Position numbers and translations under genes: made by a program. Source: a virus. From it: a stretch of DNA of 64,000 nt. Shown piece by piece: positions 1-11,100 of this stretch. The stretch is from positions 17,533 to 81,532 of IMG/VR virus record IMGVR_UViG_3300032897_000002; one strand, given 5' to 3'. The notes beneath the pieces were generated by a model. It saw nothing but the letters and a program-made list of their open reading frames with translations, had not been told where the DNA came from and did no database searches. Position 1 is the first letter of the stretch. Each line of letters begins with the position of its first letter.

Positions 1-541
1 TGAAAAGGGGAGCCACTTCGCCAGGAGTCCTTTCACGCTTTGGATACTTGGCGAGATAGGCGAGGGCCTTTTCAAGCCAGCCGTGAACCTCAATGGCCTC
101 CAACCTTCGATTGCATTTCCCGCAGAGCAATCCGCGCACACACTTCCCGCAGCAGTGATATTGCTTTTGGCAACATCCGTGGTCGTGGTCAATCGAGAGG
201 CTTGAAATTGGGCCATATTGGTTTCTTGCGTTCGTCTCGGCATCGCCGCAGATAGCGCAAGCACCACCTTGTTCTTCAAACTTACTGCGATACCACTGGA
301 CGGTGACGCCTTTGTGGCTGAGATTAGAAATTCTCTGATAAGCCCGGAGTTTCTCAGGCTCGTGCGTCTTGAGCTTTCGATATCGTCTCCGTGCGTAATC
401 GGCAATCTTTGCATTGTTGCGTCGAGACCAGCCTCGGTGATATTCATTCCAGCACGCCTTGCAGAATGTTCCGTGGTTGACATTAGGCGGAAAATCGTTA
501 TGAACTTTCCCGCATTTGCTACACGCCTTCGTCTTGTTCAT
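1..541 (-). CDS. Endonuclease VII-like (His-Me finger) homing endonuclease, 3' end runs off the window
   Basis: Not in the ORF track. Manual translation from ATG at 541 (SD GAGGT): MNKTKACSKCGK...QGGACAICG...LSIDHDHGCC...CGKCVRGLLCGKCNRRL, the EndoVII signature. Confidence 0.8.
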   Translation of the reverse strand, partial: MNKTKACSKCGKVHNDFPPNVNHGTFCKACWNEYHRGWSRRNNAKIADYARRRYRKLKTHEPEKLRAYQRISNLSHKGVTVQWYRSKFEEQGGACAICGDAETNARNQYGPISSLSIDHDHGCCQKQYHCCGKCVRGLLCGKCNRRLEAIEVHGWLEKALAYLAKYPKRERTPGEVAPLF

Positions 542-621
542 GGTCACCTCTATATGGAACATAACATAAAGGCGACCATGATACAAGAAGATTCTGCAAT
601 AGCTAAGTGCGTTAGAATCAC

Positions 622-1908: not shown

Positions 1909-2563
1909 CAGTGTTGTTACTCAGTTGATTACTATATCATCTTTCTTCAACTGAGGTGCGGTCATTTCTGCCGCACTCTGTTCGTCACCGAACAGCTCAG
2001 ACTGGATCTTCTGTGTTTCCACAGGCTCACGCACAGTCGTTACGGAACCCAAGCCACGCGAGTTAAGTTCCTTGACTCGCGCCATCAGAAGTTCGTCCTC
2101 GGCACGGTTCGGCCTCATATGCCGACCCCTCTGGGTATGTACCCGACCCTTCAAAAACATGCCGGCCAGACGTAGATGTTCTGCTTTGGCGACGGCCACG
2201 GGCTCGATCAATTGGATATATTTTTTCTGTGCAGCGATAACTCGAATCTGCACAGCCCATGAACCCCGAAATCCCTTTTCGATATTCGGCTTCGTATGAA
2301 CCACGCCGAAATAGATGTTCGCCCTTCGCAGAATATCTTGAACCTTCTCGGAGATCAGCGCATTCGTGCTTGTGACCGGCTGGATGACGAGCCTAATCAC
2401 GCCGTCACCGCTATTGCGGTAAAGCATGACGCTGCCCTCGCCATCTAGCATCCCAGCCAAATATCCGATTTCTTTGTCGCTGATTTCCATTGGTTTCCTC
2501 GGAATTATCTCCCCCCGGAGACCTTTCCCGATACAGTGAGCTTTTAGGAGACCTGTTTTACCG
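1909..2563 (-). ncRNA. Group I self-splicing intron in the major capsid gene
   Basis: Exon GGAGGCU pairs with intron GGUCUCC, giving P1 with a U.G pair at the 5' splice site. Core elements GUAACGACUG and GAAGAUCCAGUCU are present and the intron ends in G. Removal restores an in-frame MPSPVYESAVEA|IELDAF. Confidence 0.9.
1921..2490 (-). CDS. Intron-encoded LAGLIDADG homing endonuclease
   Basis: Motif YLAGMLDGEG. The ORF lies within the intron and its 3' part overlaps the ribozyme core. Confidence 0.9.
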   Translation of the reverse strand: MEISDKEIGYLAGMLDGEGSVMLYRNSGDGVIRLVIQPVTSTNALISEKVQDILRRANIYFGVVHTKPNIEKGFRGSWAVQIRVIAAQKKYIQLIEPVAVAKAEHLRLAGMFLKGRVHTQRGRHMRPNRAEDELLMARVKELNSRGLGSVTTVREPVETQKIQSELFGDEQSAAEMTAPQLKKDDIVIN

Positions 2564-2942: not shown

Positions 2943-3248
2943 TTATGCGACTCCCTTGAGCTTGTCTTCGATCTCCGCCTTCTGCTTGCGCAGAGCTTCG
3001 CGCCGCTCTTCAGGAGTGGCAAGCTGCGTCAACCGGGCGTTGATCTTCCGCAGTTCGGCTTCGAGCGCGTCGGCGTTGCGGACCGTGATCTCCCGGCGCA
3101 GGGCCTTCAACTGAATGTCAACAAATTCGGGCTCGGGGATGTTCAGCGCTTCGTATTCGGAACGAATCGAGCGTCCGAAGGCCGACAACTCCACAAGCTC
3201 GTCCAGCGTCAGCCGGTCTTTGTCAAACGACTGATATCTCTCCAGCAT
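2943..3248 (-). CDS. Helical/coiled-coil protein coupled to the vWA gene
   Basis: Strong SD (AGGAGG), overlaps the vWA gene end, and has a charged heptad pattern. Confidence 0.75.
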   Translation of the reverse strand: MLERYQSFDKDRLTLDELVELSAFGRSIRSEYEALNIPEPEFVDIQLKALRREITVRNADALEAELRKINARLTQLATPEERREALRKQKAEIEDKLKGVA

Positions 3249-4821
3249 AGACTGCCTCCTTTCTCTCAGATTTGAAAACTTCTTTCAGTGTCACAAGCGG
3301 CACCGCCATGATCTCGTCCAGAATTGAATAGCGATTAACCCGCATGGTCTGGACCAGATTCGGCAGTGCATAGTGGTCGATGCTGTCCCCCAGCACGAAT
3401 TCCTGCAAGTCCAGTTCCGCCAGCTTCATGCTGTCCTGCAAGTCCATGTCGCCCGAGAACCGGAACGACGTGGCATTGAGCATCCGAAGTCGCGGAATGA
3501 GATGGCTTCGATATTCCGGCCCGCAGCGGTAGAGGTACACCGGAGGCTGCTTCCCGACAAACTCCGCATAGCGTGCATAGACCGCCGTAAATGCCGGGTT
3601 CTGGTTCTCCTTCGCATCCGATACTACCGCGATGCCATCCACCTCCAGCTTCGCATCAAGCAGATATTGCAGTGCCACCCCAATTGAGGTGCCCCCATCA
3701 GCGCGAACCTTGCTGGTTTCCTTGAGCAGTTCATCGTAGGTCTTTCCGGTTGCGTTGATGAAGCGCGGAGAGGTGTCGAAGAACACCAAATAGACGTTCC
3801 CCTTCACCATTCTGGCCAACGTCGCCGCAACTTGGCGGGAGGCTTCGATGGTGCTGCTCATGCTCCCGCTTTTGTCGCCCAACACGGCCCAGTTGCCTTC
3901 GACCCCTCCGAGCGTCTTGATCTGCTTCTCCTGAAGGGCTTGCAACTTCGCCTTGAGGCCCTCATCCTCGACCGCATCGGCCGCCACGGTGGTTTTGAAG
4001 GTGGCCTTCTTGCTGGTTCCCGCCTTCGCGATTGCGGCTTCGTAGGCGCCACGCAACGCCGGATTCGTCTTGATGCCGAGTTTTTCCAGCATCTTCGTAT
4101 TCGTGACCAACTCAGTCGGTGTCATGCCGTTGATGAGCGCCAAAACAAGGTCCGTTTCCTTGGCCATCTTCCCGAGCGCTCCGACGGCCACCAGAAAAGG
4201 AATTTTGCGGCCGATGATCTCCCCGGCTGCCTCTATCGGGGTCATGTCCTTCAAGTGCGTGATGATGTCGAAGATACTGCCCTTCGGGACCGGCATCTTG
4301 TCGGGGTGCTTCTTCGACGTTCCGAACAAGATCGCATCTGCCAGCGGGCACGGCTTTACATGCGCGAGAGCGTAGAGTGCCTTGAGGGTCTGCCGGTGCT
4401 GAACCGCAGCCCGCTCCCAGCGGTGCCAGTTGGCTTCCCGGTTGTGCAGGTAATCACCGATGAGCCCTTGCAGACTGCGAATCGTCTTGCTGCGCCCCGG
4501 CCACGGATGAGTTTTGCGAAGCTCCAGGGCAAACCGGAAAGCCCGCTCCAGTTCACGCGGTCCTTGTAGCGCCACATGCGCGAGCGAGTTCTCGATGAAA
4601 TCGCTGTCGGTAAATTCGGGCGAGCAGAGCGAGATGACCGGCAGCGCCACCTTGGAGTCACGGATTTGGCCTTTCAGTTGATTCCACGCAATGAGGTGGC
4701 TCAAAAATTCAGGCTCCCGCCGGGCGGCCTCCTGGGTCACCGGAATGTACTCTTCCAACTTGCCGTGAGGAGACTTGCTCAGGTCACTCAAAATTTGATT
4801 CTTGGTGATGCCGGTTTCCAT
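3223..4821 (-). CDS. Divergent Ro60/TROVE-like protein with C-terminal vWA domain
   Basis: 532 aa, similar in size to Ro60. A helical N-terminal region (EPEFLSHLIAW...GQIRD) precedes a vWA domain with full MIDAS (DKSGS, GGTS, VVSD). Y-RNA-like genes lie immediately upstream. The vWA call is firm; the TROVE call is inferred. Confidence 0.7.
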   Translation of the reverse strand: METGITKNQILSDLSKSPHGKLEEYIPVTQEAARREPEFLSHLIAWNQLKGQIRDSKVALPVISLCSPEFTDSDFIENSLAHVALQGPRELERAFRFALELRKTHPWPGRSKTIRSLQGLIGDYLHNREANWHRWERAAVQHRQTLKALYALAHVKPCPLADAILFGTSKKHPDKMPVPKGSIFDIITHLKDMTPIEAAGEIIGRKIPFLVAVGALGKMAKETDLVLALINGMTPTELVTNTKMLEKLGIKTNPALRGAYEAAIAKAGTSKKATFKTTVAADAVEDEGLKAKLQALQEKQIKTLGGVEGNWAVLGDKSGSMSSTIEASRQVAATLARMVKGNVYLVFFDTSPRFINATGKTYDELLKETSKVRADGGTSIGVALQYLLDAKLEVDGIAVVSDAKENQNPAFTAVYARYAEFVGKQPPVYLYRCGPEYRSHLIPRLRMLNATSFRFSGDMDLQDSMKLAELDLQEFVLGDSIDHYALPNLVQTMRVNRYSILDEIMAVPLVTLKEVFKSERKEAVYAGEISVV

Positions 4822-4838
4822 GGATTACCTCTTTCTAA

Positions 4839-4956
4839 TTGCGGAAAGTTAGGCAGTGTCTACCCTCACCAATGGGTGGCACCAGGCAAGCCCGATGGCG
4901 GGATTCGAACCAGCATTGCACCTTGCAAGCGCATGTAAACTGCCAGGTATCCGCAA
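4839..4956 (-). ncRNA. Y-RNA-like (YrlA-like) RNA, permuted tRNA domain
   Basis: Terminal stem UUGCGGA/UCCGCAA, inner GGCAGU/ACUGCC, UUACAUG motif, T arm GCUGGUUCGAAUCCCGC, closed acceptor hairpin, then D arm ACCC-AUUGGUGA-GGGU. Confidence 0.75.
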
Positions 4957-4962
4957 ATCTTA

Positions 4963-5078
4963 TGGCCTCAAGTCGAAGGTGGTATCTTTGCTAAGGCTCA
5001 AAAGCCTCCCCCCCGCAAGGATGGTGGAGGGGGGCCGGTACGACCGGCATGGCATGTAACCCTCTTCAGTAGAGGCCA
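4963..5078 (-). ncRNA. Y-RNA-like RNA, degenerate permuted tRNA domain
   Basis: Terminal stem UGGCCUC/GAGGCCA with UAC..CGACUU loop and UUACAUG motif. Hairpins GCCGG-UCGUA-CCGGC, a C-rich/G-rich acceptor-like stem with ACCA in its loop, and AGGCU-UUUG-AGCCU. Confidence 0.7.
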
Positions 5079-5081
5079 ATC

Positions 5082-5612
5082 TCACAAACTTCTTAGTTCC
5101 AAATACCGCTTGGTTGCGTTGAAATCGTAGCCCCGGCGTGCGCACCATGTCTCGGGGTCTTCCGAGCCTTTGTCTTTATTGCACGGCTTGCAGGCTGTAA
5201 GATAATTACTCGCGTTATTTTTTCCGCCCAGTTCCAACGGAACAAAATGGTCGATGGTCATGAGAGATTTTCCCATCTTCGCGCCGCAGTATGCGCACTT
5301 GAAGCCGTCAGCCGCCCAGATTCGCTGTTGCACGGAACCGGAAATCTCATAGCGCACCTTGCGCTGGAAAATCTTCGCTGGGCCGATCAGAATCTCTGGA
5401 TTATCGCTCCGCTGGATGAAGTCAGACCATTCTTCCACCGTCAACTCATACTCGCTTGTTTTGCGGCATTCGAATCCCGGCAACATGAGGATGGCCTTTG
5501 CTCCTCCGCCTCCAACCACAAGGCCCTCAATCTTCAGGAGTGATCCGATATCGCCGTACTTCACGGGCCGATTGCGAAATTCCAAGAGATAAAATCTGTC
5601 GTCGCTCGCCAT
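5082..5612 (-). CDS. HNH endonuclease (McrA-like zinc-binding HNH) embedded in the ncRNA array
   Basis: CAYCG...TIDHFVPLELGG.NNASNYLTACKPCNKDKG, preceded by an N-terminal domain of about 85 aa of unknown type. Confidence 0.85.
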   Translation of the reverse strand: MASDDRFYLLEFRNRPVKYGDIGSLLKIEGLVVGGGGAKAILMLPGFECRKTSEYELTVEEWSDFIQRSDNPEILIGPAKIFQRKVRYEISGSVQQRIWAADGFKCAYCGAKMGKSLMTIDHFVPLELGGKNNASNYLTACKPCNKDKGSEDPETWCARRGYDFNATKRYLELRSL

Positions 5613-5624
5613 GGTCAATCCTAA

Positions 5625-5758
5625 TTGGGTGCAAGTCGCTGCGGGTTCATTAAGCGCTCTACCACTGAGCTAATCCCCCGTATGGCTGGGGGATGTTGGA
5701 TTCGAACCAACGACCTCTTCCTTAGAAGGAAGCATGTAACCGCCTCAGTAGCACCCAA
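5625..5758 (-). ncRNA. Y-RNA-like (YrlA-like) RNA, permuted tRNA domain
   Basis: Terminal stem UUGGGUGC/GCACCCAA, T arm GUUGGUUCGAAUCCAAC, acceptor AUCCCCC-agccauac-GGGGGAU closed by a loop, canonical D arm UAGCUCAGUGGUAGAGC. The order is T, acceptor, D. Confidence 0.85.
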
Positions 5759-5764
5759 ACTTTA

Positions 5765-5874
5765 TCCCGGTAAGTCGGCCAGCTTTTACTTCATGGTTGG
5801 AATTGAACCAACTCCCACTGAGCCAAGTCAGTTGCTCACCAAAGAGCTTCATGTACGCTGTCCCATAACCGGGA
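5765..5874 (-). ncRNA. Y-RNA-like RNA with tRNA arms in normal order
   Basis: Terminal stem UCCCGGU/ACCGGGA, UACAUG and CGACUU motifs, D-like GCUC-UUUGGU-GAGC, anticodon-like ACUGA-CUUGGC-UCAGU, T arm GUUGGUUCAAUUCCAAC. Confidence 0.75.
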
Positions 5875-5892
5875 ATCTCATATCGAAGGTAC

Positions 5893-5921
5893 AGCCTACG
5901 ATTGTTCCAAGCGGTTGTCAA
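5893..5921 (-). promoter_or_regulatory. Sigma70 promoter of the ncRNA/HNH/vWA operon
   Basis: TTGACA-17 nt-TAGGCT. The predicted start is about 12 nt before the first ncRNA. Confidence 0.75.
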
Positions 5922-5948
5922 CAACTTTTTTCAATTATTTTTTCAACT

Positions 5949-5973
5949 AAAAACCCCGGCTGCGGAGCCGGGG
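5949..5973 (-). terminator. Intrinsic terminator upstream of the Ro-like operon
   Basis: CCCCGGC-TCCGCA-GCCGGGG followed by TTTTT on the minus strand. Confidence 0.7.
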
Positions 5974-6132
5974 CGGAAGGGAAAAATGGACGGCTAAAGA
6001 GTAGCGCGGGAAGCTCGATTTTGCAAGATATTTCGCTTCTTGTTCGCCCTGCCGTGTTAGAATAGTTCGAGCGGCTGAAGTGCATCAACACTCACAGCCG
6101 CCCTTGACTCAACGACCTGGAAGGAGGCCGTC

Positions 6133-6666
6133 ATGCCCGAAGAAAATCTTACCACAACTCCAGAGATTTGGAAGCCCGTTGTTGGCTATGAGGGATATTA
6201 CGAAGTTTCAAACAAGGGAAGGGTGAAGCGCGTTGGGCACCGAAAACATACGCGAATAGGTAGAATTATAAAACCGTGGTTAAGCCGTGGATACTGCCAA
6301 GTACGATTATCAAGGGACGGAAATTTAATTGCGCGTCTTGCCCATCAACTTGTCATGGAGGCTTTTGTTGGCCCCCGCCCAGAGAAACATGAAGTAAATC
6401 ATATCAATGGCATTAAGACAGATAATATATGGCCTGAGAATCTTGAATATGTTACAAAAAGTCAAAATCAATTACACGCCTCAGACCTCGGTTTGATGCA
6501 CCGGGGAGAAGATCACCACAAGGCAAAACTTACAGAGGAGCAGGTTAAAGAAATTATTGTCGCCGAAGGATCGCATTCGCAAATCGCGATAAAGTATGGC
6601 ATCAGCCGAGCCATGATTTCATACATTAAACGAGGCAAATCATGGCGTCATATTCCGCGTCCATAG
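6133..6666 (+). CDS. NUMOD4-HNH homing endonuclease
   Basis: EIWKPVVGYEGYYEVSNKGRVK (NUMOD4), EVNHINGIKTDN..NLEYVT (HNH), C-terminal HTH. Confidence 0.92.
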   Translation: MPEENLTTTPEIWKPVVGYEGYYEVSNKGRVKRVGHRKHTRIGRIIKPWLSRGYCQVRLSRDGNLIARLAHQLVMEAFVGPRPEKHEVNHINGIKTDNIWPENLEYVTKSQNQLHASDLGLMHRGEDHHKAKLTEEQVKEIIVAEGSHSQIAIKYGISRAMISYIKRGKSWRHIPRP

Positions 6667-6731
6667 ATGGTCAAGAGACGGCCTCGGGGCGGAGCAAGCC
6701 ATTCATCGTTTGTCCGATTGCTACCCCAATC

Positions 6732-8132
6732 TTAGGCCCTCGGTGCTCCTGGTCCGATGCGGCCTGGACGCCACGAGACGAGCTTCCCGTTAGCTTTGAG
6801 ATATCCCCTTCCAGTTATGTACATTAATTGATTGGGATCTTTACTCATATCTAACTCTTCGATTCTGGGCTTCACCGCAATCGGAATGGGTTTGTTGGGA
6901 TTCAACCCCCCCCCAACTCGCGGAGCCTGCTGTTGAGGCTGTTGCGGCTGATAGATGGGCTCCTGCGGGGCCACACGGCGTACCGGAGGCTTCTCTGGGC
7001 CGTAGCGAAGCTCAACCACAGCTTTGATGGCGTCTTTCCGCACCTTGTCGATCTGCGGCTTGGCAAACCGCGTGATGGTGTCGATGGTGGCCTGACCGCT
7101 GTTGGTCTGGCGAAGAAGGTTTTTCAGGCTCGTATCGAAGAATGTCCCCGGCCCCAACCGGCGGGCGATCTCAACAATGCTGGCGTTTTCGAGGTCCTCG
7201 ATGGCCTTGGCCGTGAGGTTGCGCCCCTTCGACCATGTTTGCAGCACCGGCCGCACGGTACTGCGCATGTAGCTGTCCAGGTCGCGGCCAACGTGTTGTT
7301 CGAGCATCTGGCGCTTCTCGGTGCGGACCTGTTCCTGCTGCTTCTGGAGTTCATTCACGCGGGGGTCTTTGTAGCGGTTCTTGATCTCGTCATCCATGCC
7401 GCGAAGTTTCTTGATCCACTCCTCGACGGCCTGAATCTTCGCGCCCGCCCGCGCTACTCCATCTGCGGTGCCGGTCTTGAGTTCCTGAAGGGCTTCCGAC
7501 AACGCTCCCGTAGCGCCCTGGCCGTCCAGCGTGTCCAAGATCGGCCGCATGACGGCGAGGAAGTAGGCTTGCTGGTCCATTTTCTGGAGGATGCTGAGGG
7601 CTTCCGGTACGAGCTTCTTGAACCCCTCGGGGCTGGCTTGGCTCATCTCCTCGATCAGCCGCCCGTCGCCGTGGTCGAGCATGTCGTCAATGTCGGCCAC
7701 CCGGTCGCCCAACTTCTGCATCTCCATAAGGCCGTCAAAGCCTCCGAAGGCGTCGATGGTGGCCTGCGCCCCCCGCGCTTCTTCGACGGTCGGATAGACT
7801 TCCGTGAAGCCCTTCCAACGCCCGTAGGCGGCCTGGAGTTCGCGGAGGGCCGATGCGTGCTGAGGCGCCGTCGTGCGCAGTTCCCTGATGGCCTTATACA
7901 CATTCGCCGGTAACGGAGGCGTCTCCTCCTGCAAGGGCGATGGCGCTGGCTCGGCCGGTTGCGCACCCTCCCCTTCTACGGGGGGCATTTCCCCGCCTTC
8001 TCCCGGCTGTGGTTCCAGCGGGGCTTCCGTCCCCAGTCCCGTTTCGACCGGAAGTTGCTCTGTGCCGCCCTCCGGCGCTGCGCCCGTTCCTGAATCTACC
8101 AAGCCTTGCAAAGTGTCGATATCGGCTCCCAT
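6732..8132 (-). CDS. Probable capsid scaffolding protein
   Basis: Acidic Pro/Gly-rich N-terminus, helical core, located between portal-like and capsid genes. Confidence 0.55.
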   Translation of the reverse strand: MGADIDTLQGLVDSGTGAAPEGGTEQLPVETGLGTEAPLEPQPGEGGEMPPVEGEGAQPAEPAPSPLQEETPPLPANVYKAIRELRTTAPQHASALRELQAAYGRWKGFTEVYPTVEEARGAQATIDAFGGFDGLMEMQKLGDRVADIDDMLDHGDGRLIEEMSQASPEGFKKLVPEALSILQKMDQQAYFLAVMRPILDTLDGQGATGALSEALQELKTGTADGVARAGAKIQAVEEWIKKLRGMDDEIKNRYKDPRVNELQKQQEQVRTEKRQMLEQHVGRDLDSYMRSTVRPVLQTWSKGRNLTAKAIEDLENASIVEIARRLGPGTFFDTSLKNLLRQTNSGQATIDTITRFAKPQIDKVRKDAIKAVVELRYGPEKPPVRRVAPQEPIYQPQQPQQQAPRVGGGLNPNKPIPIAVKPRIEELDMSKDPNQLMYITGRGYLKANGKLVSWRPGRIGPGAPRA

Positions 8133-8158: not shown

Positions 8159-11100
8159 TCAAACTTGTGGTCCTGGTGCAACAATCGGCATCGGAACGGC
8201 GGGTCCGGTCGGATGCTTCGATTTCTCAAGCTCGGCCTGAAATTCGCGGGTCGTTGAAACGTCCGAACCCGTCACCGTGGTATCTCCCCGGCGCTGCAAC
8301 TCCTTCGCCACCGATTCGGCCGGCAGGTCGCTCAGCTTGCCACTGATGTTCATGGGCTTTACAACGGGCTCGGGCGGAGGCACCTTTGCTTTATGCTCAG
8401 AAAAGTGCAGATTAAGGTTGAGGAAAGCTGCCTGTTCCTCGGGACTCCCGTTGGCGAGTTTGCGTCCACGCGGGTCGTTGATCACATCGAGACACGCTTC
8501 CGCCTCCGACGCATGATCGTCTGTGTCGCGCACTGGGACCGTGGAAACAAGGTCTGGCAGCGCGTTGATGGCCGCTTCCATCTGCATAAGGGCCTGTGTC
8601 TCCTCGGGGGTTATCACGACGCCCTGCAACATCTTCGCGGCTGCCTGCGCCTTGGCCTGCTCGAAGGCCATCTGGGCCTGCTGCTTGGCGGGATTGGGAA
8701 CGGGGCCGCTGGCTAGCAGTACATCCAACTCGCCCATTTGTTTGTCGTAGGCGTCGGCCTCGGAGCACTTGAAGTGTCCGATGCGGAACGACTCCATCGC
8801 GGCCCGGATATTGGCGACCTTGCTGAGCAGTTTCATGACGAGCGGGTTGGTGACCTGCATCAGCACGCGGTTCCATGCGGCCTGACGCTGCGCGGGACTC
8901 TCGGAGTACCCGGCATCATCCTGCGGGAAGCACAGCACATTACCCTTGAGGTCGTCAATTTCGATATCGACCGCCTCGCCATTCTTGTCGGTTTGGTGGA
9001 TGGAGGCATTCCGGCAGCGGGCCGCGAGTTGCACGGCCTGGCGATGGTAATTGCAGGTGGCCATCTTCATGGCGTGCCACGGCGTTCCCTGGGTCGCGAG
9101 GGCCTGATCGCGCTGGATTTCGAGAGCGACACCGGATGGATTCGCAACGTCTGTATTGGCCGTGGACCCGAAGAGAGTCGGTAAGGCGTGCACAATCAAC
9201 TGCGGCAACTGCTCGATGAAGTACATGATTAACTGGATCATGAACGGCTGGCCGGTGGGGGTCGGAAACACAAACATGGAGTCGGCTATGGGCTTTCCCG
9301 CCGCTGCGCCTTGAAGCTGCCGCGAGTCCACTGGGATGAACGCCCCCGGATTCGAGCCGGTCTTGTTGAGCGCGTCCACGTCGAACAGCACCGTGTCCAC
9401 TGCGGTGTGCGGGACGCACTTGGTCATGTAGGCATCGGCCAAATCGAGCCAGTTGTTGAGGCGCCGCTGGATGGACGTGAGGCTGGACATGAGGGACTTG
9501 CGGTTCTGGCCTGTACCCGGAAGGGCCTGGATGAGCGTGAGGTGATCATCCATGCACTCATTGCGGGCCTCGATGAACGTGTCCCCGGCCATATAGCACT
9601 TCACGCCGTCGGGGAACGCATCGAACAGTTCACGCCGCACATCGAGGTCTTCCACTTCCATAAACATCGCGGGCCGCATCCAGATGCGATGCAGCGTGAC
9701 ATCCTTTACGAGCGAGTCCCCGGTGACGTAGCTCGCTTCGAGCGACAACGACACGTTGATGCGGGCAATGCGGTCCAGTTCGATTTCGGCCACGCCGGAA
9801 CCACCCGGCTTGATCTTGTCGGCTTTCTTGGGGAACATGGCCTTCAGCCGCGCCACATCGAACTCGCGGGAGACCTTCACGAAATCCATTTCGTCAAGCG
9901 ATTGCGCGACGATGGGGACCTTCGCCTCTAACTTGCCGCAGACCTCCACGACTTCCTGCCCACGCGGGATGCCACGCTTGATGCCGGCCGGTTGAGTGCC
10001 GGTGGATTTGGGGAAGATGGGCCGCATGTCGTAGTTGGCGTCCTCTTTCTGCTCCACCACCGCTACGCCACCCGGAGGCACGTTGGTAATGCCGTAGGGA
10101 ATCTCAGGGTTCAGAAATTGGCCCACAGAACTAATAACCGAATCATGACAGACGATGGCAAACGGTAGCCCCGGAGTTCGCAGCAGGTCCAGAATTGCAG
10201 AAGCAACGCGCTGATTGAACTCCTCGACATTCTCTCCGCCGGGAGCTTCCTCTTCGCCGGTAAAGATTTCGCGTATTTCCTCGGCATTTTTTTGCGCATC
10301 CTCTCCCGTAAGCGTTCCCAGGTCGAAGGCGGCTAGACGGTCATCAACATCGTAAGGCACCCCAAGGGCCTGCGAAACGTATTCGGCCGTCTCCACGCTC
10401 CGCTGTACGGGGCTGCACACAATGCGGCTGATGTTCTTGCCCTTCAGGAATGCCGCTACCTTCTCGGCCTCGCGCCGTCCGAGCTTGTTGAGCGGGTCCT
10501 GCGACTCGCCGCGCAGCTTGCCCTCAGCGTTCTTTTCGGTCTCGCCGTGGCGCACGATGTAGAGCAGGGGATTGTTGACGTGCTCTTCGGTTTCGGGCAC
10601 AACGGGCTCGGCAGGCTCGTTGAGGGGCTCCCGCCCAAAGCGCTGCGCGTCGATAACGTGGTCTGTTATCAACACGACCCGGCCATCGGTACAGAGGTAG
10701 TTGGCGATCTGCATGTGGGTGCCCAGCAGGTCGTTCTGGCTCTCGAACACGCGGGCATAATTGGACGCGGCTTCCTTCGCGGTGATGTCGGCATCGTCCT
10801 CGGGGTCACGCGCCTGGAACTGCACGCCGGGAATGTCACGCGATAGCGCTGCCGTGATGATCTGCTCGTAGCAGCCGTAGATGTTGGTCTCGTTGCCCCA
10901 GAACTTCTTGTTGCGGGTTGTGCCGCCGATGGTGCCGCTGAAACCGAGGGCTACCCAGCCGCCACCACGTCTCGGTAAAAGATATTGATAACCACGGGAA
11001 TAGAGTCTTTGGGACCAAGCGTCTTCAAACTTCCCATCTGCGCGCGGCCAAGTCGCGCCTTGCGGTTGCACCGCACAGGTCTACTAACGTGTTTTCTGCC

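What the first reader, a model, noticed from the sequence alone, without database searches (positions are those of the whole stretch)
4839..5874. Shared covarying stem motif defines a candidate new ncRNA family
Seen in all four units (5' to 3', minus strand): a 7-8 bp outer stem of different sequence each time (UCCCGGU, UUGGGUGC, UGGCCUC, UUGCGGA, all perfectly paired); an internal loop with UAY opposite (CG)ACUU; a second short stem; an invariant UACAUG; then a variable domain. Conserved unpaired bases with freely covarying stems indicate selection on RNA structure. The loop sequence does not match the metazoan Ro-binding helix (GGUCCGA/UUGAC). Inferred: it is the binding site of the divergent vWA protein.
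Basis: seen in the sequence. Interest (0 to 1): 0.82.

Follow-up and report, generated by a model that had tools for sequence, protein, structure and literature searches.

The report
Phage Y-RNA handle beside hidden Ro60
Four small RNA genes in this uncultured phage share one conserved two-stem "handle" that recurs upstream of a very divergent Ro60-like ring protein in dozens of related phages, so they are most likely an undescribed branch of the known Ro60-binding Y RNAs.

Summary
On the minus strand, four units (5874-5765, 5757-5626, 5078-4963, 4956-4839) each have a perfectly paired 7-8 bp outer stem of different sequence. Each also has an internal loop (UAY opposite ACUU), a second stem, UACAUG and a variable core.

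A covariance model built only from nine units of other phages found three of the four units and nothing else in the 64 kb. A second-round model found all four. It also gave 255 matches in 66 of 75 related phage loci, all upstream of the homologous gene and on its strand. Stems covary strongly: 92% of cells paired against 55% in shuffles.

The downstream 532-aa "vWA protein" has a full-length Ro60 fold (Z 15-18), although Pfam TROVE and sequence profiles miss it. The units are therefore Y-RNA-like, closest to YrlA. They lack YrlA's GNCGAAN0-1G motif (0 of 217 units). None of the 18 sources scanned (this window and 17 loci) reaches Rfam's YrlA threshold.

Binding of the handle by the Ro60-like protein is inferred, not shown. 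I class this as a new variant of a known kind. Earlier notes of this scan describe the same family in at least five other genomes.

The parts
5953..5974 (-). Terminator-like hairpin with a T run, closing the upstream transcription unit just before the RNA array
   Evidence: 9-pair stem, 7 G-C pairs, tail TTTTAG. Function is inferred.
5893..5921 (-). Possible promoter: TTGACA, 17-nt spacer, TAGGCT, ending about 18 nt before unit 1
   Evidence: Read in the sequence. It did NOT pass the promoter scan's threshold (0 sites), so it is a weak inference.
5765..5874 (-). Unit 1 (U1). Handle: outer stem 5874-5868/5771-5765, loop UAU / GACUU, second stem 5864-5857/5783-5777, UACAUG 5855-5850. It encloses a non-permuted tRNA-like cloverleaf (5856-5788) with a 6-nt anticodon-like loop.
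   Evidence: R1 25.1 bits; R2 46.9 bits. Rfam tRNA 34 bits against cut-off 29 in evalue mode. ARAGORN 'tRNA-???' with a 2-nt anticodon.
5626..5757 (-). Unit 2 (U2). Handle: outer stem 5757-5751/5632-5626, plus U5758-A5625; loop UAC / CGACUU; UACAUG 5738-5733. It encloses a circularly permuted, YrlA-type tRNA-like core: V hairpin, T arm, closed acceptor stem whose loop reads AGCCAUAC, then D arm.
   Evidence: R1 33.1 bits; R2 53.5 bits. Rfam YrlA 35 bits over model positions 23-89, below cut-off 69.
5082..5618 (-). HNH-nuclease ORF (178 aa from TTG; an ATG lies at 5612) between units 2 and 3. It is a recurrent member of the cassette.
   Evidence: Pfam HNH_5 and HNH; PHROG HNH families. Homologues with 57-71% identity in the 12 rows printed lie inside or just after the RNA arrays in 30 of 75 related loci.
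4963..5078 (-). Unit 3 (U3). Handle: outer stem 5078-5072/4969-4963, loop UAC / CGACUU, UACAUG 5058-5053. It encloses three hairpins in the permuted order but with degenerate T and D loops. The loop of the long G/C stem contains ACCA.
   Evidence: R1 34.5 bits, E 8e-8; R2 49.8 bits. No Rfam YrlA or tRNA match.
4839..4956 (-). Unit 4 (U4). Handle variant: outer stem 4956-4950/4845-4839, loop UACCU / UAACUU, UACAUG 4937-4932. It encloses a degenerate permuted tRNA-like core with a GGUUCGAAUCC T loop.
   Evidence: Missed by R1 and found by R2 at 43.9 bits. Weak full-length Rfam YrlA alignment, 18.8 bits, E 0.66.
3223..4821 (-). 532-aa Ro60-like protein (helical-repeat ring plus vWA domain with the DxSxS...T...D metal site conserved). 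It starts 17 nt after unit 4, behind an AGAGG ribosome-binding site.
   Evidence: Pfam gives only a weak VWA_2 match. AlphaFold2 model mean pLDDT 79.7. Foldseek top hits are Ro60/Rsr/phage phiLo Ro60, E about 1e-8 over 488-540 alignment columns. VIA-align Z 15.1-18.3 over 418-439 residues. Invariant D316, S318, S320, T378, D402. More than 1,100 homologues.
2943..3248 (-). 101-aa ORF overlapping the end of the Ro60-like gene; a conserved neighbour of unknown role
   Evidence: tblastn finds a homologue in 61 of 75 related loci; in all 12 rows printed it lies just downstream of the Ro60-like gene.

Best explanation
The shared motif is the constant 'handle' of a family of modular Y-RNA-like small RNAs encoded by uncultured phages.

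The 5' and 3' ends of each RNA pair into a 7-8 bp stem of free sequence. An asymmetric internal loop follows (5' YAC, 3' ACUU). Then comes a roughly 9-bp second stem that begins with a conserved U.G and G-C and ends with a conserved G-C and C-G. A junction reading UACAYG opposite an A-rich strand closes the handle.

On this handle sits an exchangeable cargo: a whole tRNA-shaped cloverleaf (U1), a circularly permuted tRNA mimic as in YrlA (U2, U4, and a degenerate form in U3), or, in relatives, a short hairpin.

Inferred steps:
- The array and the downstream genes are transcribed together and cut into single RNAs.
- The handle docks each RNA on the divergent Ro60-like ring protein encoded immediately downstream, as Y RNA stems dock on Ro60/Rsr.
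- The tRNA-like cargo brings in or distracts a tRNA-recognising enzyme.
For: Shown:
1. The motif is present in all four units.
2. A model built from nine units of other phages recovers three of the window's units and nothing else in 64 kb.
3. R2 gives 255 matches at E <= 1e-3 in 66 of 75 IMG/VR loci fetched by the protein. All are on the gene's strand and all are upstream. They make 213 distinct units in 58 distinct arrays of 1-8 units, most often 4.
4. Reverse test: 97 IMG/VR stretches hold a 14-base motif pattern and 80 were listed. Twelve of the 80 have R2 hits. Eleven of those encode the protein just downstream, and the twelfth lies on a contig known to encode it. None of the other 68 encodes it.
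5. Covariation: 92.0% of cells paired against 55.4% in shuffles and 26-44% with partners slid. Fifteen of 16 pairs show double changes, and the outer stem is 97% paired with all four Watson-Crick types (similar).
6. Unpaired bases are nearly fixed in 141 distinct units: A 140 and C 134 of YAC; U141 A139 C141 A141 Y141 G140; A139 C125 U130 U99.
7. The protein has the whole Ro60 architecture: Foldseek E about 1e-8; Z 15.1-18.3 over 418-439 residues, above the vWA-only rows (Z <= 14.2 over about 160 residues).
8. The Rfam YrlA model aligns U4 end to end in the same register and U2's core at 35 bits.
9. Precedent: Y RNAs lie within 4 kb of Ro60 on the same strand, including in 22 phages (PMC4201824, Results read). 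Phage phiLo Ro60 binds two upstream Y-like RNAs (PMC12135203, passages read).
Against: - No binding, expression or processing data exist. No RNA run was listed for this DNA.
- The loci were fetched through the Ro60-like protein. Linkage therefore cannot separate it from the 101-aa neighbour (61 of 75 loci) or the HNH protein (30 of 75 loci) as the handle's partner.
- The protein shows no sequence-level link to Ro60: Pfam TROVE is absent, PDB sequence and profile searches are empty for Ro60, and hhalign against Bxz1 Ro gives probability 1.4%. Homology rests on a predicted fold with pTM 0.62.
- The YrlA/Rsr recognition motif GNCGAAN0-1G is absent from 0 of 217 units. In known bacterial Y RNAs only the 5' strand is conserved (10.1101/312249, passage read), whereas here both strands carry conserved bases.
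- Nine of 75 loci have no R2 hit at E <= 1e-3. Two have under 300 nt upstream. Three (L021-L023) showed the same motif positions; of these only L021 was re-searched, giving one weak hit, and L066 gave two weak hits. L029, L064 and L071 gave none.
- The pair counts were made on model-fitted alignments, which lean towards the structure.
Confidence: 0.74

Rival explanations
1. The handle is a processing clamp rather than a protein-docking site. The leader and trailer of each tRNA-like transcript pair so that host RNases (RNase P, RNase III/E, 3' exonucleases) cut the polycistronic transcript at defined points. This would release tRNAs or tRNA-like RNAs that act on their own.
For: - In relatives, complete tRNAs scoring 45-68 bits with RF00005 lie inside R2 units, with UACA as the immediate 5' leader and, in some, an encoded CCA.
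- ARAGORN calls a tRNA in 33 of 217 distinct units.
- True tRNA gene arrays flank many of these loci.
- M. smegmatis YrlA is cut by RNase P and receives CCA (PMC4201824, section heading and figure legend seen; 10.1101/312249, passage).
Against: - The many ordinary tRNA genes in the same loci have no handle: R2 hits lie only in the block next to the Ro60-like gene.
- 49 of 217 units carry only a short hairpin, and many cores are permuted or degenerate, so no tRNA could be released.
- Four of the 33 ARAGORN calls have loops of the wrong size, and several have unusual A34 anticodons. That suggests relaxed decoding constraint.
- A mere processing stem would not need nearly invariant unpaired bases on both strands.
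- This rival is not exclusive of Ro60 docking.
Confidence: 0.12
2. The handle is recognised by another protein of the cassette, either the conserved 101-aa helical protein or the HNH nuclease. The Ro60-like ring would then act on other RNAs.
For: The 101-aa ORF accompanies the Ro60-like gene in 61 of 75 loci. An HNH homologue sits inside or after the arrays in 30 of 75 loci. Linkage alone cannot tell the partners apart.
Against: - The HNH gene is missing from 45 of 75 loci, whereas 66 of 75 have handles.
- In every studied Ro60 system the paired 5'/3' stem of the neighbouring RNA is the Ro60 site (10.1101/312249, passage read; PMC12135203, passages read).
Confidence: 0.1
3. The units are DNA-level repeats (recombination or homing-endonuclease targets), or a chance resemblance, with no RNA function.
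For: HNH, LAGLIDADG and endonuclease VII genes are frequent in this window.
Against: - The stems differ in sequence yet stay complementary, including through G-U pairs, which only make sense in RNA and on one strand.
- All 255 hits are on the gene's strand and none on the other.
- In the strict pattern search, 93 of 341 plus-strand UACAUG sites carry a perfect stem plus ACUU, against 2 of 110 on the minus strand.
Confidence: 0.02

Closest known systems
YrlA-type bacterial and phage Y RNAs with Rsr/Ro60 (Rfam RF02553; Chen et al. 2014, PMC4201824; Wang et al. 2018, 10.1101/312249)
   Same: - Encoded just upstream of, and on the strand of, a Ro60-type gene.
- The 5' and 3' ends pair into a stem interrupted by an asymmetric loop, followed by a second stem and a YUAY-like UUAC.
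- The cargo is a circularly permuted tRNA mimic (V, T, closed acceptor, D) in U2 and U4.
- The Rfam consensus also carries A-U-G-conserved 'AcUuG' on the 3' strand next to the outer stem.
   Different: - No GNCGAAN0-1G or CGAA motif (0 of 217 units). The outer stem is free in sequence, and conserved bases lie on both strands (YAC, UACAYG, GACUU).
- Rfam scores are far below the cut-off (35 and 18.8 against 69).
- My handle model finds nothing in the mycobacteriophage Bxz1 Ro locus. There the gene product matches Pfam TROVE and vWA_Ro60, and the upstream RNAs, as I read the sequence, carry GCCGARRG-type motifs.
- Arrays hold up to 8 units.
- The partner protein is undetectable as Ro60 by sequence.
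- Caveat: Bxz1's own YrlA also scores only 32.5 bits with RF02553. The Rfam cut-off is therefore a poor membership test for phage members.
Deinococcus radiodurans Yrn1 (Y RNA bound by Rsr)
   Same: As described in PMC4201824, Yrn1 has the tRNA-like arms in the non-permuted orientation and an 'anticodon loop' of 6 instead of 7 nt. U1 has the same order (D, anticodon-like, T) on the Y stem and also a 6-nt loop.
   Different: The paper says Yrn1 lacks a full D arm and V arm and carries the conserved Rsr-binding helix. U1 has a scoreable cloverleaf (34 bits) and the phage-type handle. I did not examine any Yrn1 sequence here.
Thermus phage phiLo Ro60 with Yrl1/Yrl2 (PMC12135203; PDB 9KOP, 9L5Y)
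   Same: A phage-encoded Ro60 with Y-like RNAs just upstream that it binds in gel shifts. It is a structural match of the protein here: Z 15.1-16.9.
   Different: The phiLo RNAs were picked by their CGAA motif, number two, and were tied to host PNPase (passages read). Here there are four units with no CGAA and tRNA-like cargo.
Metazoan Y RNAs
   Same: Modular design: a terminal stem for Ro60 and a variable effector module.
   Different: The contacted motif quoted in PMC4201824 (GGUCCGA) is absent, and no Rfam Y-RNA model other than YrlA matched the region up to E 10.

Membership tests
YrlA / bacterial Y RNA (RF02553; Chen et al. 2014) | Encoded within about 4 kb of a Ro60 orthologue, on the same strand | tested here: met
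   The four units lie 17-1,053 nt upstream of the Ro60-fold ORF on the same strand. The same holds for all 255 hits in 66 of 75 loci. The 'orthologue' is recognised by predicted structure only.
YrlA / bacterial Y RNA (RF02553; Chen et al. 2014) | 5' and 3' ends pair into a long, interrupted stem | tested here: met
YrlA / bacterial Y RNA (RF02553; Chen et al. 2014) | GNCGAAN0-1G motif near the 5' end (the proposed Rsr site) | tested here: not met
   0 of 217 distinct units, including the window's four. CGAA occurs within the first 20 nt in only 4 of 217.
YrlA / bacterial Y RNA (RF02553; Chen et al. 2014) | Permuted tRNA-like domain (T arm, closed acceptor stem, D arm), with YUAY before the V region | tested here: inconclusive
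   Met by U2 (35 bits over model positions 23-89; UUAC present) and weakly by U4. U1 has the non-permuted order, and U3 has degenerate loops.
YrlA / bacterial Y RNA (RF02553; Chen et al. 2014) | Rfam gathering score (69 bits) | tested here: not met
   There are 0 hits at gathering score in the window and 0 YrlA hits among 101 Rfam hits in 17 related loci. The best scores are 35 and 18.8 bits. The Bxz1 phage YrlA also fails at 32.5 bits, so this test is insensitive for phage members.
YrlA / bacterial Y RNA (RF02553; Chen et al. 2014) | Bound by Ro60/Rsr in vivo or in vitro | not testable with these tools
   Needs a gel shift or co-purification.
tRNA (RF00005), for U1's core | Cloverleaf above the Rfam cut-off, with a 7-nt anticodon loop and a paired acceptor stem | tested here: inconclusive
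   34 bits against cut-off 29 in evalue mode, but with two non-standard acceptor pairs. It was not reported in the whole-window gathering run. ARAGORN gives 'tRNA-???' with a 2-nt anticodon, which means a 6-nt loop. It is a mimic rather than a decoder.
Ro60 / TROVE proteins, for the 532-aa ORF | Pfam TROVE (PF05731) and vWA_Ro60 (PF25045) sequence signatures | tested here: not met
   Only VWA_2 at 26.8 bits against cut-off 27. Bxz1 gp220 matches both families at E 1e-50 or better. hhalign probability is 1.4%.
Ro60 / TROVE proteins, for the 532-aa ORF | Ring of helical repeats closed by a C-terminal vWA domain with a MIDAS site | tested here: met
   The predicted model aligns over 418-439 residues to human, Xenopus, Deinococcus and phage Ro60 with Z 15.1-18.3 and Foldseek E about 1e-8. 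D316, S318, S320, T378 and D402 are invariant in 28 homologues. This rests on a prediction with mean pLDDT 79.7 and pTM 0.62.

The most novel reading that the evidence does not exclude
A large clade of uncultured phages carries a cryptic Ro60-type ring that has evolved its own RNA code: the handle YAC / UACAYG / GACUU, read on both strands. The ring would use it to load up to eight different cargos, including complete tRNAs with encoded CCA ends, permuted tRNA mimics and acceptor-like minihelices. Such a particle would be a multi-cargo platform that presents or sacrifices tRNA shapes. One possible role is as decoys or repair substrates against host tRNA-cleaving defences. That would be a role and a cargo range not described for any Ro60 system.
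Probability: 0.25. Interest if true: 0.8.

Novelty: new variant of a known kind. Interest (0 to 1): 0.62.

Why it matters
Ro60 and its Y RNAs are studied from bacteria to humans, yet what the tRNA-like module of bacterial Y RNAs does is still unknown.

This family would add more than a thousand Ro60-like proteins that sequence searches do not recognise as Ro60. It would also add a second, sharply defined RNA recognition motif and a natural series of cargos on one constant handle: whole tRNA, permuted tRNA, and minihelix.

That gives a direct way to test which part of a Y RNA binds the ring and what the tRNA shape recruits. It also links Ro60 particles to phage-host conflicts over tRNA.

For annotation, the handle model finds these RNAs where Rfam reports nothing or only 'tRNA'.

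Tried and rejected
- **Rfam at gathering score on the whole window:** 0 hits. In evalue mode the only relevant matches were sub-threshold YrlA and tRNA. The other weak rows (TCV_Pr, anti-hemB, PsrR1, sR32) are hairpin or terminator look-alikes, and I dismissed them.
- **Nucleotide search of GenBank phages with 3000-7000:** only a 60-nt match to a Klebsiella phage, which is irrelevant.
- **Protein search of GenBank phages:** one uncultured 595-kb phage at 30% identity. R2 finds no handle there, and Rfam shows tRNA and tRNA-like hits upstream. I did not follow this further.
- **The search for related loci with the single protein:** 0 loci. The alignment A1 was needed.
- **PDB sequence and profile searches:** no Ro60.
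- **Alignments not used for models:** the MAFFT alignment of the four units (A2) misplaced U3's UACAUG. A3 and A4 had register shifts. RNAalifold on A3 recovered only the outer stem. R1 was built from A5 with a structure I wrote by hand, in which 4 of the 9 seeds were one column out of register in the inner half of stem 2.
- **Promoter scan:** 0 sites.
- **YrlA family search in 14 control genomes:** none over the cut-off, so no canonical YrlA was obtained that way.
- **Sequencing runs:** no RNA holder listed.
- **Paper not held:** the review PMC10870794. Supplementary tables of PMC4201824, which list the phage YrlA loci, were not opened and could show whether any member of this clade was already listed.
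- **Literature searches for a prior description:** (terms YrlA, Y RNA, Rsr, tRNA-like, Ro60, phage, TROVE, Y RNA-like, bacteriophage, tRNA mimic) gave none. The 2026 preprint on three tRNA-mimic families concerns other RNAs.
- **K-turn or loop-E reading of the internal loop:** considered and dropped, because the loop has no tandem G.A pairs (reading of the sequence only).
- **First submission:** one search was returned for a missing confidence field. This call repeats it with the field added.
Full report
**What is there**

Read on the minus strand, the stretch 5974-3223 has the following order:
- a terminator-like hairpin (5974-5953);
- a possible but weak promoter (TTGACA, 17 nt, TAGGCT; it did not pass the scan);
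- two RNA units, U1 (5874-5765) and U2 (5757-5626), only about 7 nt apart;
- an HNH-nuclease ORF (5618-5082);
- two further units, U3 (5078-4963) and U4 (4956-4839), about 5 nt apart;
- 17 nt later, behind an AGAGG ribosome-binding site, a 532-aa ORF (4821-3223).

The tight packing suggests one transcript that is cut into pieces. That is an inference.

**Checking the observation**

- The four outer stems are perfectly paired and all differ in sequence.
- The 5' loop is UAU (U1) or UAC (U2-U4).
- ACUU precedes the closing strand in all four units. It is preceded by CG in U2 and U3, by G in U1 and by UA in U4.
- A second stem follows, with one A.G mismatch in U1 and U2 and a small internal loop in U3.
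- UACAUG is present in all four units.

Single-sequence folds keep the outer stem in all four. The z-scores are modest, from -1.25 to -3.68, so folding energy alone would not be convincing.

**Is it more than chance?**

I fetched 75 IMG/VR loci that encode homologues of the 532-aa protein.
- UACAUG is strongly enriched upstream of the gene on its strand, in runs spaced 70-170 nt apart.
- In a strict pattern search, 93 of 341 plus-strand UACAUG sites have a perfect 7-bp stem closed by ACUU. On the other strand the count is 2 of 110.

I then built covariance model R1 from nine minimal units of other phages only, with a hand-written two-stem structure.
- In this window R1 finds U3, U2 and U1 (E 8e-8, 2e-7, 6e-5), and nothing else up to E 10 on either strand.
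- On all 75 loci plus the window it gives 118 hits, all on the gene's strand.

A second model, R2, was built from those 118 hits.
- R2 finds all four window units and nothing else, in the window and in the whole 81.5-kb virus record.
- In the 75 loci it gives 255 hits at E <= 1e-3, all on the plus strand and all upstream of the gene.
- The hits lie in 66 of 75 loci. They make 213 distinct units in 58 distinct arrays of 1-8 units, with a mode of 4 and a median unit length of 123 nt.

Nine loci have no hit at that threshold. Two have under 300 nt of upstream sequence. L021-L023 showed the same motif positions; only L021 and L066 of this group were re-searched with weak hits resulting (16.7-18.2 bits), and L029, L064 and L071 gave none.

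For the reverse test I scanned IMG/VR for a 14-base motif pattern. It matched 97 stretches, of which 80 were listed.
- Twelve of the 80 have R2 hits.
- Eleven of those encode the protein immediately downstream, and the twelfth lies on a contig already known to encode it.
- None of the other 68 encodes the protein.

**Covariation**

On 141 distinct high-scoring units:
- 92.0% of pair cells are standard pairs, against 55.4% after shuffling (0 of 500 shuffles reach it) and 26-44% when partners are slid by 1-3 columns;
- 15 of 16 pairs show changes on both sides;
- the outer stem is 97% paired with all four Watson-Crick types at every position.

The first-round alignment gave similar results. These alignments are fitted to the model and so lean towards the structure, but the margin is large.

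The unpaired bases are nearly fixed:
- Y-A(140/141)-C(134);
- a U.G (117) then a G-C (113) pair opening stem 2;
- G-C (137) and C-G/G-C (134) closing it;
- U141 A139 C141 A141 U113/C28 G140;
- A139 C125 U130 U99 before the closing strand.

**What the protein is**

- Pfam sees only a borderline vWA domain. PDB sequence and profile searches find no Ro60.
- An AlphaFold2 model made from 28 homologues has mean pLDDT 79.7 and pTM 0.62.
- Its best Foldseek matches are Ro60 structures: human, Xenopus, Deinococcus Rsr and Thermus phage phiLo, at E about 1e-8 over 488-540 alignment columns.
- VIA-align gives Z 15.1-18.3 over 418-439 residues for these. vWA-only proteins reach Z 14.2 or less over about 160 residues.
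- The MIDAS residues are invariant in the family.
- By contrast, the Ro-like protein of mycobacteriophage Bxz1 matches Pfam TROVE and vWA_Ro60 at E 1e-50 or better and shows no profile similarity to this family.

The protein therefore has the Ro60 architecture but is beyond sequence recognition. The family has more than 1,100 members in public data, almost all unnamed. GenBank phages hold one member, an uncultured phage.

**What the RNAs are**

The design is that of Y RNAs, and of YrlA in particular: paired ends carrying a conserved site, plus a variable module.
- U2's core aligns to the YrlA model (T arm, closed acceptor stem, D arm; 35 bits).
- U4 aligns end to end in the same register at 18.8 bits.
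- U1's core is a non-permuted cloverleaf (RF00005, 34 bits; ARAGORN reports a 2-nt 'anticodon', which means a 6-nt loop).
- U3 keeps three hairpins with degenerate loops.

Chen et al. (PMC4201824; Results read, passages) describe both orientations: YrlA is permuted, and Deinococcus Yrn1 is non-permuted with a 6-nt loop. They also describe a conserved YUAY before the V region, which fits the UUAC of UACAUG here.

The differences are clear.
- The proposed Rsr site GNCGAAN0-1G is absent from all 217 distinct units.
- Conserved bases lie on both strands. In bacterial Y RNAs only the 5' strand is reported as conserved (10.1101/312249, passage read).
- No unit reaches Rfam's YrlA cut-off in the window or in 17 related loci, where all 101 Rfam hits are tRNA.
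- R2 finds nothing in the Bxz1 Ro locus, whose two upstream RNAs, as I read them, carry GCCGARRG-type motifs.

One caveat applies: Bxz1's own YrlA scores only 32.5 bits with RF02553. Failing the Rfam cut-off is therefore weak evidence against membership.

**The cargo in relatives**

- About 18 of the 101 tRNA hits lie inside R2 units. They are complete cloverleaves scoring up to 68 bits (Gly, Phe, Met, Ile, Thr, Lys and others), with UACA as the leader and sometimes an encoded CCA.
- Across 217 distinct units, a rough sorting gives 33 with an ARAGORN tRNA, 26 clearly permuted, 49 short hairpin-only units, and the remainder degenerate.
- Four of the 33 have loops of the wrong size and several have unusual anticodons. 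This favours mimicry over decoding, but it is not proof.
- UACAUG occupies different structural places in the different classes: before the acceptor stem in one, before the V arm in another. That argues that it belongs to the handle, not to the tRNA-like part.

**Mechanism**

- Shown: a conserved, covarying two-stem handle with fixed loop bases; strict linkage in strand and position to a Ro60-fold gene; and exchangeable tRNA-like cargo.
- Inferred by analogy with Ro60-Y RNA complexes, including phage phiLo Ro60, which binds two upstream Y-like RNAs (PMC12135203, passages read): the handle docks the RNA on the ring, and the cargo engages a tRNA-recognising factor.
- Rivals: a processing clamp for tRNA-like transcripts, or recognition by the conserved 101-aa neighbour (61 of 75 loci) or the HNH protein (30 of 75 loci). 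Both remain open, because the loci were collected through the Ro60-like gene and no expression data exist.

**Novelty and verdict**

I found no description of this handle, or of Y-type RNAs carrying whole tRNAs.
- The literature searches gave none.
- The jumbo-phage survey only notes ROT/TROVE proteins with a tRNA-like partner (PMC7824862, passage read).
- The 2026 preprint on tRNA mimics treats other RNAs.
- The supplementary tables of PMC4201824 were not seen.

It is a new variant of a known kind: Y-RNA biology with a different recognition motif, a hidden Ro60 and large multi-cargo arrays. Earlier notes of this scan describe the same family in at least five other genomes and reach the same reading. 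I reached mine before reading them. From them I took only the lead to test the small downstream protein.

Noticed in passing
window 5082-5618 (-): The HNH-nuclease ORF between units 2 and 3 is not a sporadic insertion. Homologues (57-71% identity in the 12 rows printed) lie inside the RNA array or between the array and the Ro60-like gene in 30 of 75 related loci. It may be a working part of the cassette.
   Followed up: partly
window 2943-3248 (-): A 101-aa ORF with a charged, helical-looking sequence overlaps the end of the Ro60-like gene. It is conserved in 61 of 75 related loci, just downstream of that gene in all 12 rows printed. Its function is unknown.
   Followed up: partly
L009 2958-3083, L017 1618-1744, L074 2329-2456, L059 2440-2569 and others: In related phages, complete tRNAs (Gly-UCC, Phe-GAA, Met-CAU and others, up to 68 bits) sit inside the handle. 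Some have an encoded CCA directly after the acceptor stem. Whether they are released and used in translation is open.
   Followed up: partly
L024 2787-2862, L001 3400-3477, L046 309-385: Several minimal units consist of the handle plus one hairpin followed by GCCA. They look like acceptor-stem minihelices with a discriminator base and a CCA end.
   Followed up: no
L028, L024, L017, L045 and other related loci: Many related loci are flanked on both sides by long arrays of ordinary tRNA genes, up to 19 in 8.5 kb. This window has none apart from U1's core.
   Followed up: no
window 1921-2490 (-), 6133-6666 (+), 2-586 (-): There are further mobile-nuclease-type genes close by: a LAGLIDADG/HNH-like ORF, an HNH_3 plus NUMOD4 ORF, and an endonuclease VII ORF.
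   Followed up: no
window 8159-11071 (-): A 970-aa ORF has a histidine-phosphatase domain at residues 170-316 (Pfam His_Phos_1, E 1e-32). An earlier follow-up in this scan reads it as a portal protein with an inserted phosphatase.
   Followed up: no
L083 2255-2750 (Mycobacteriophage Bxz1, upstream of gp220): The published type of phage YrlA scores only 32.5 bits with Rfam RF02553 (cut-off 69), and only over the tRNA-like core. The Rfam model therefore under-detects phage Y RNAs in general.
   Followed up: partly
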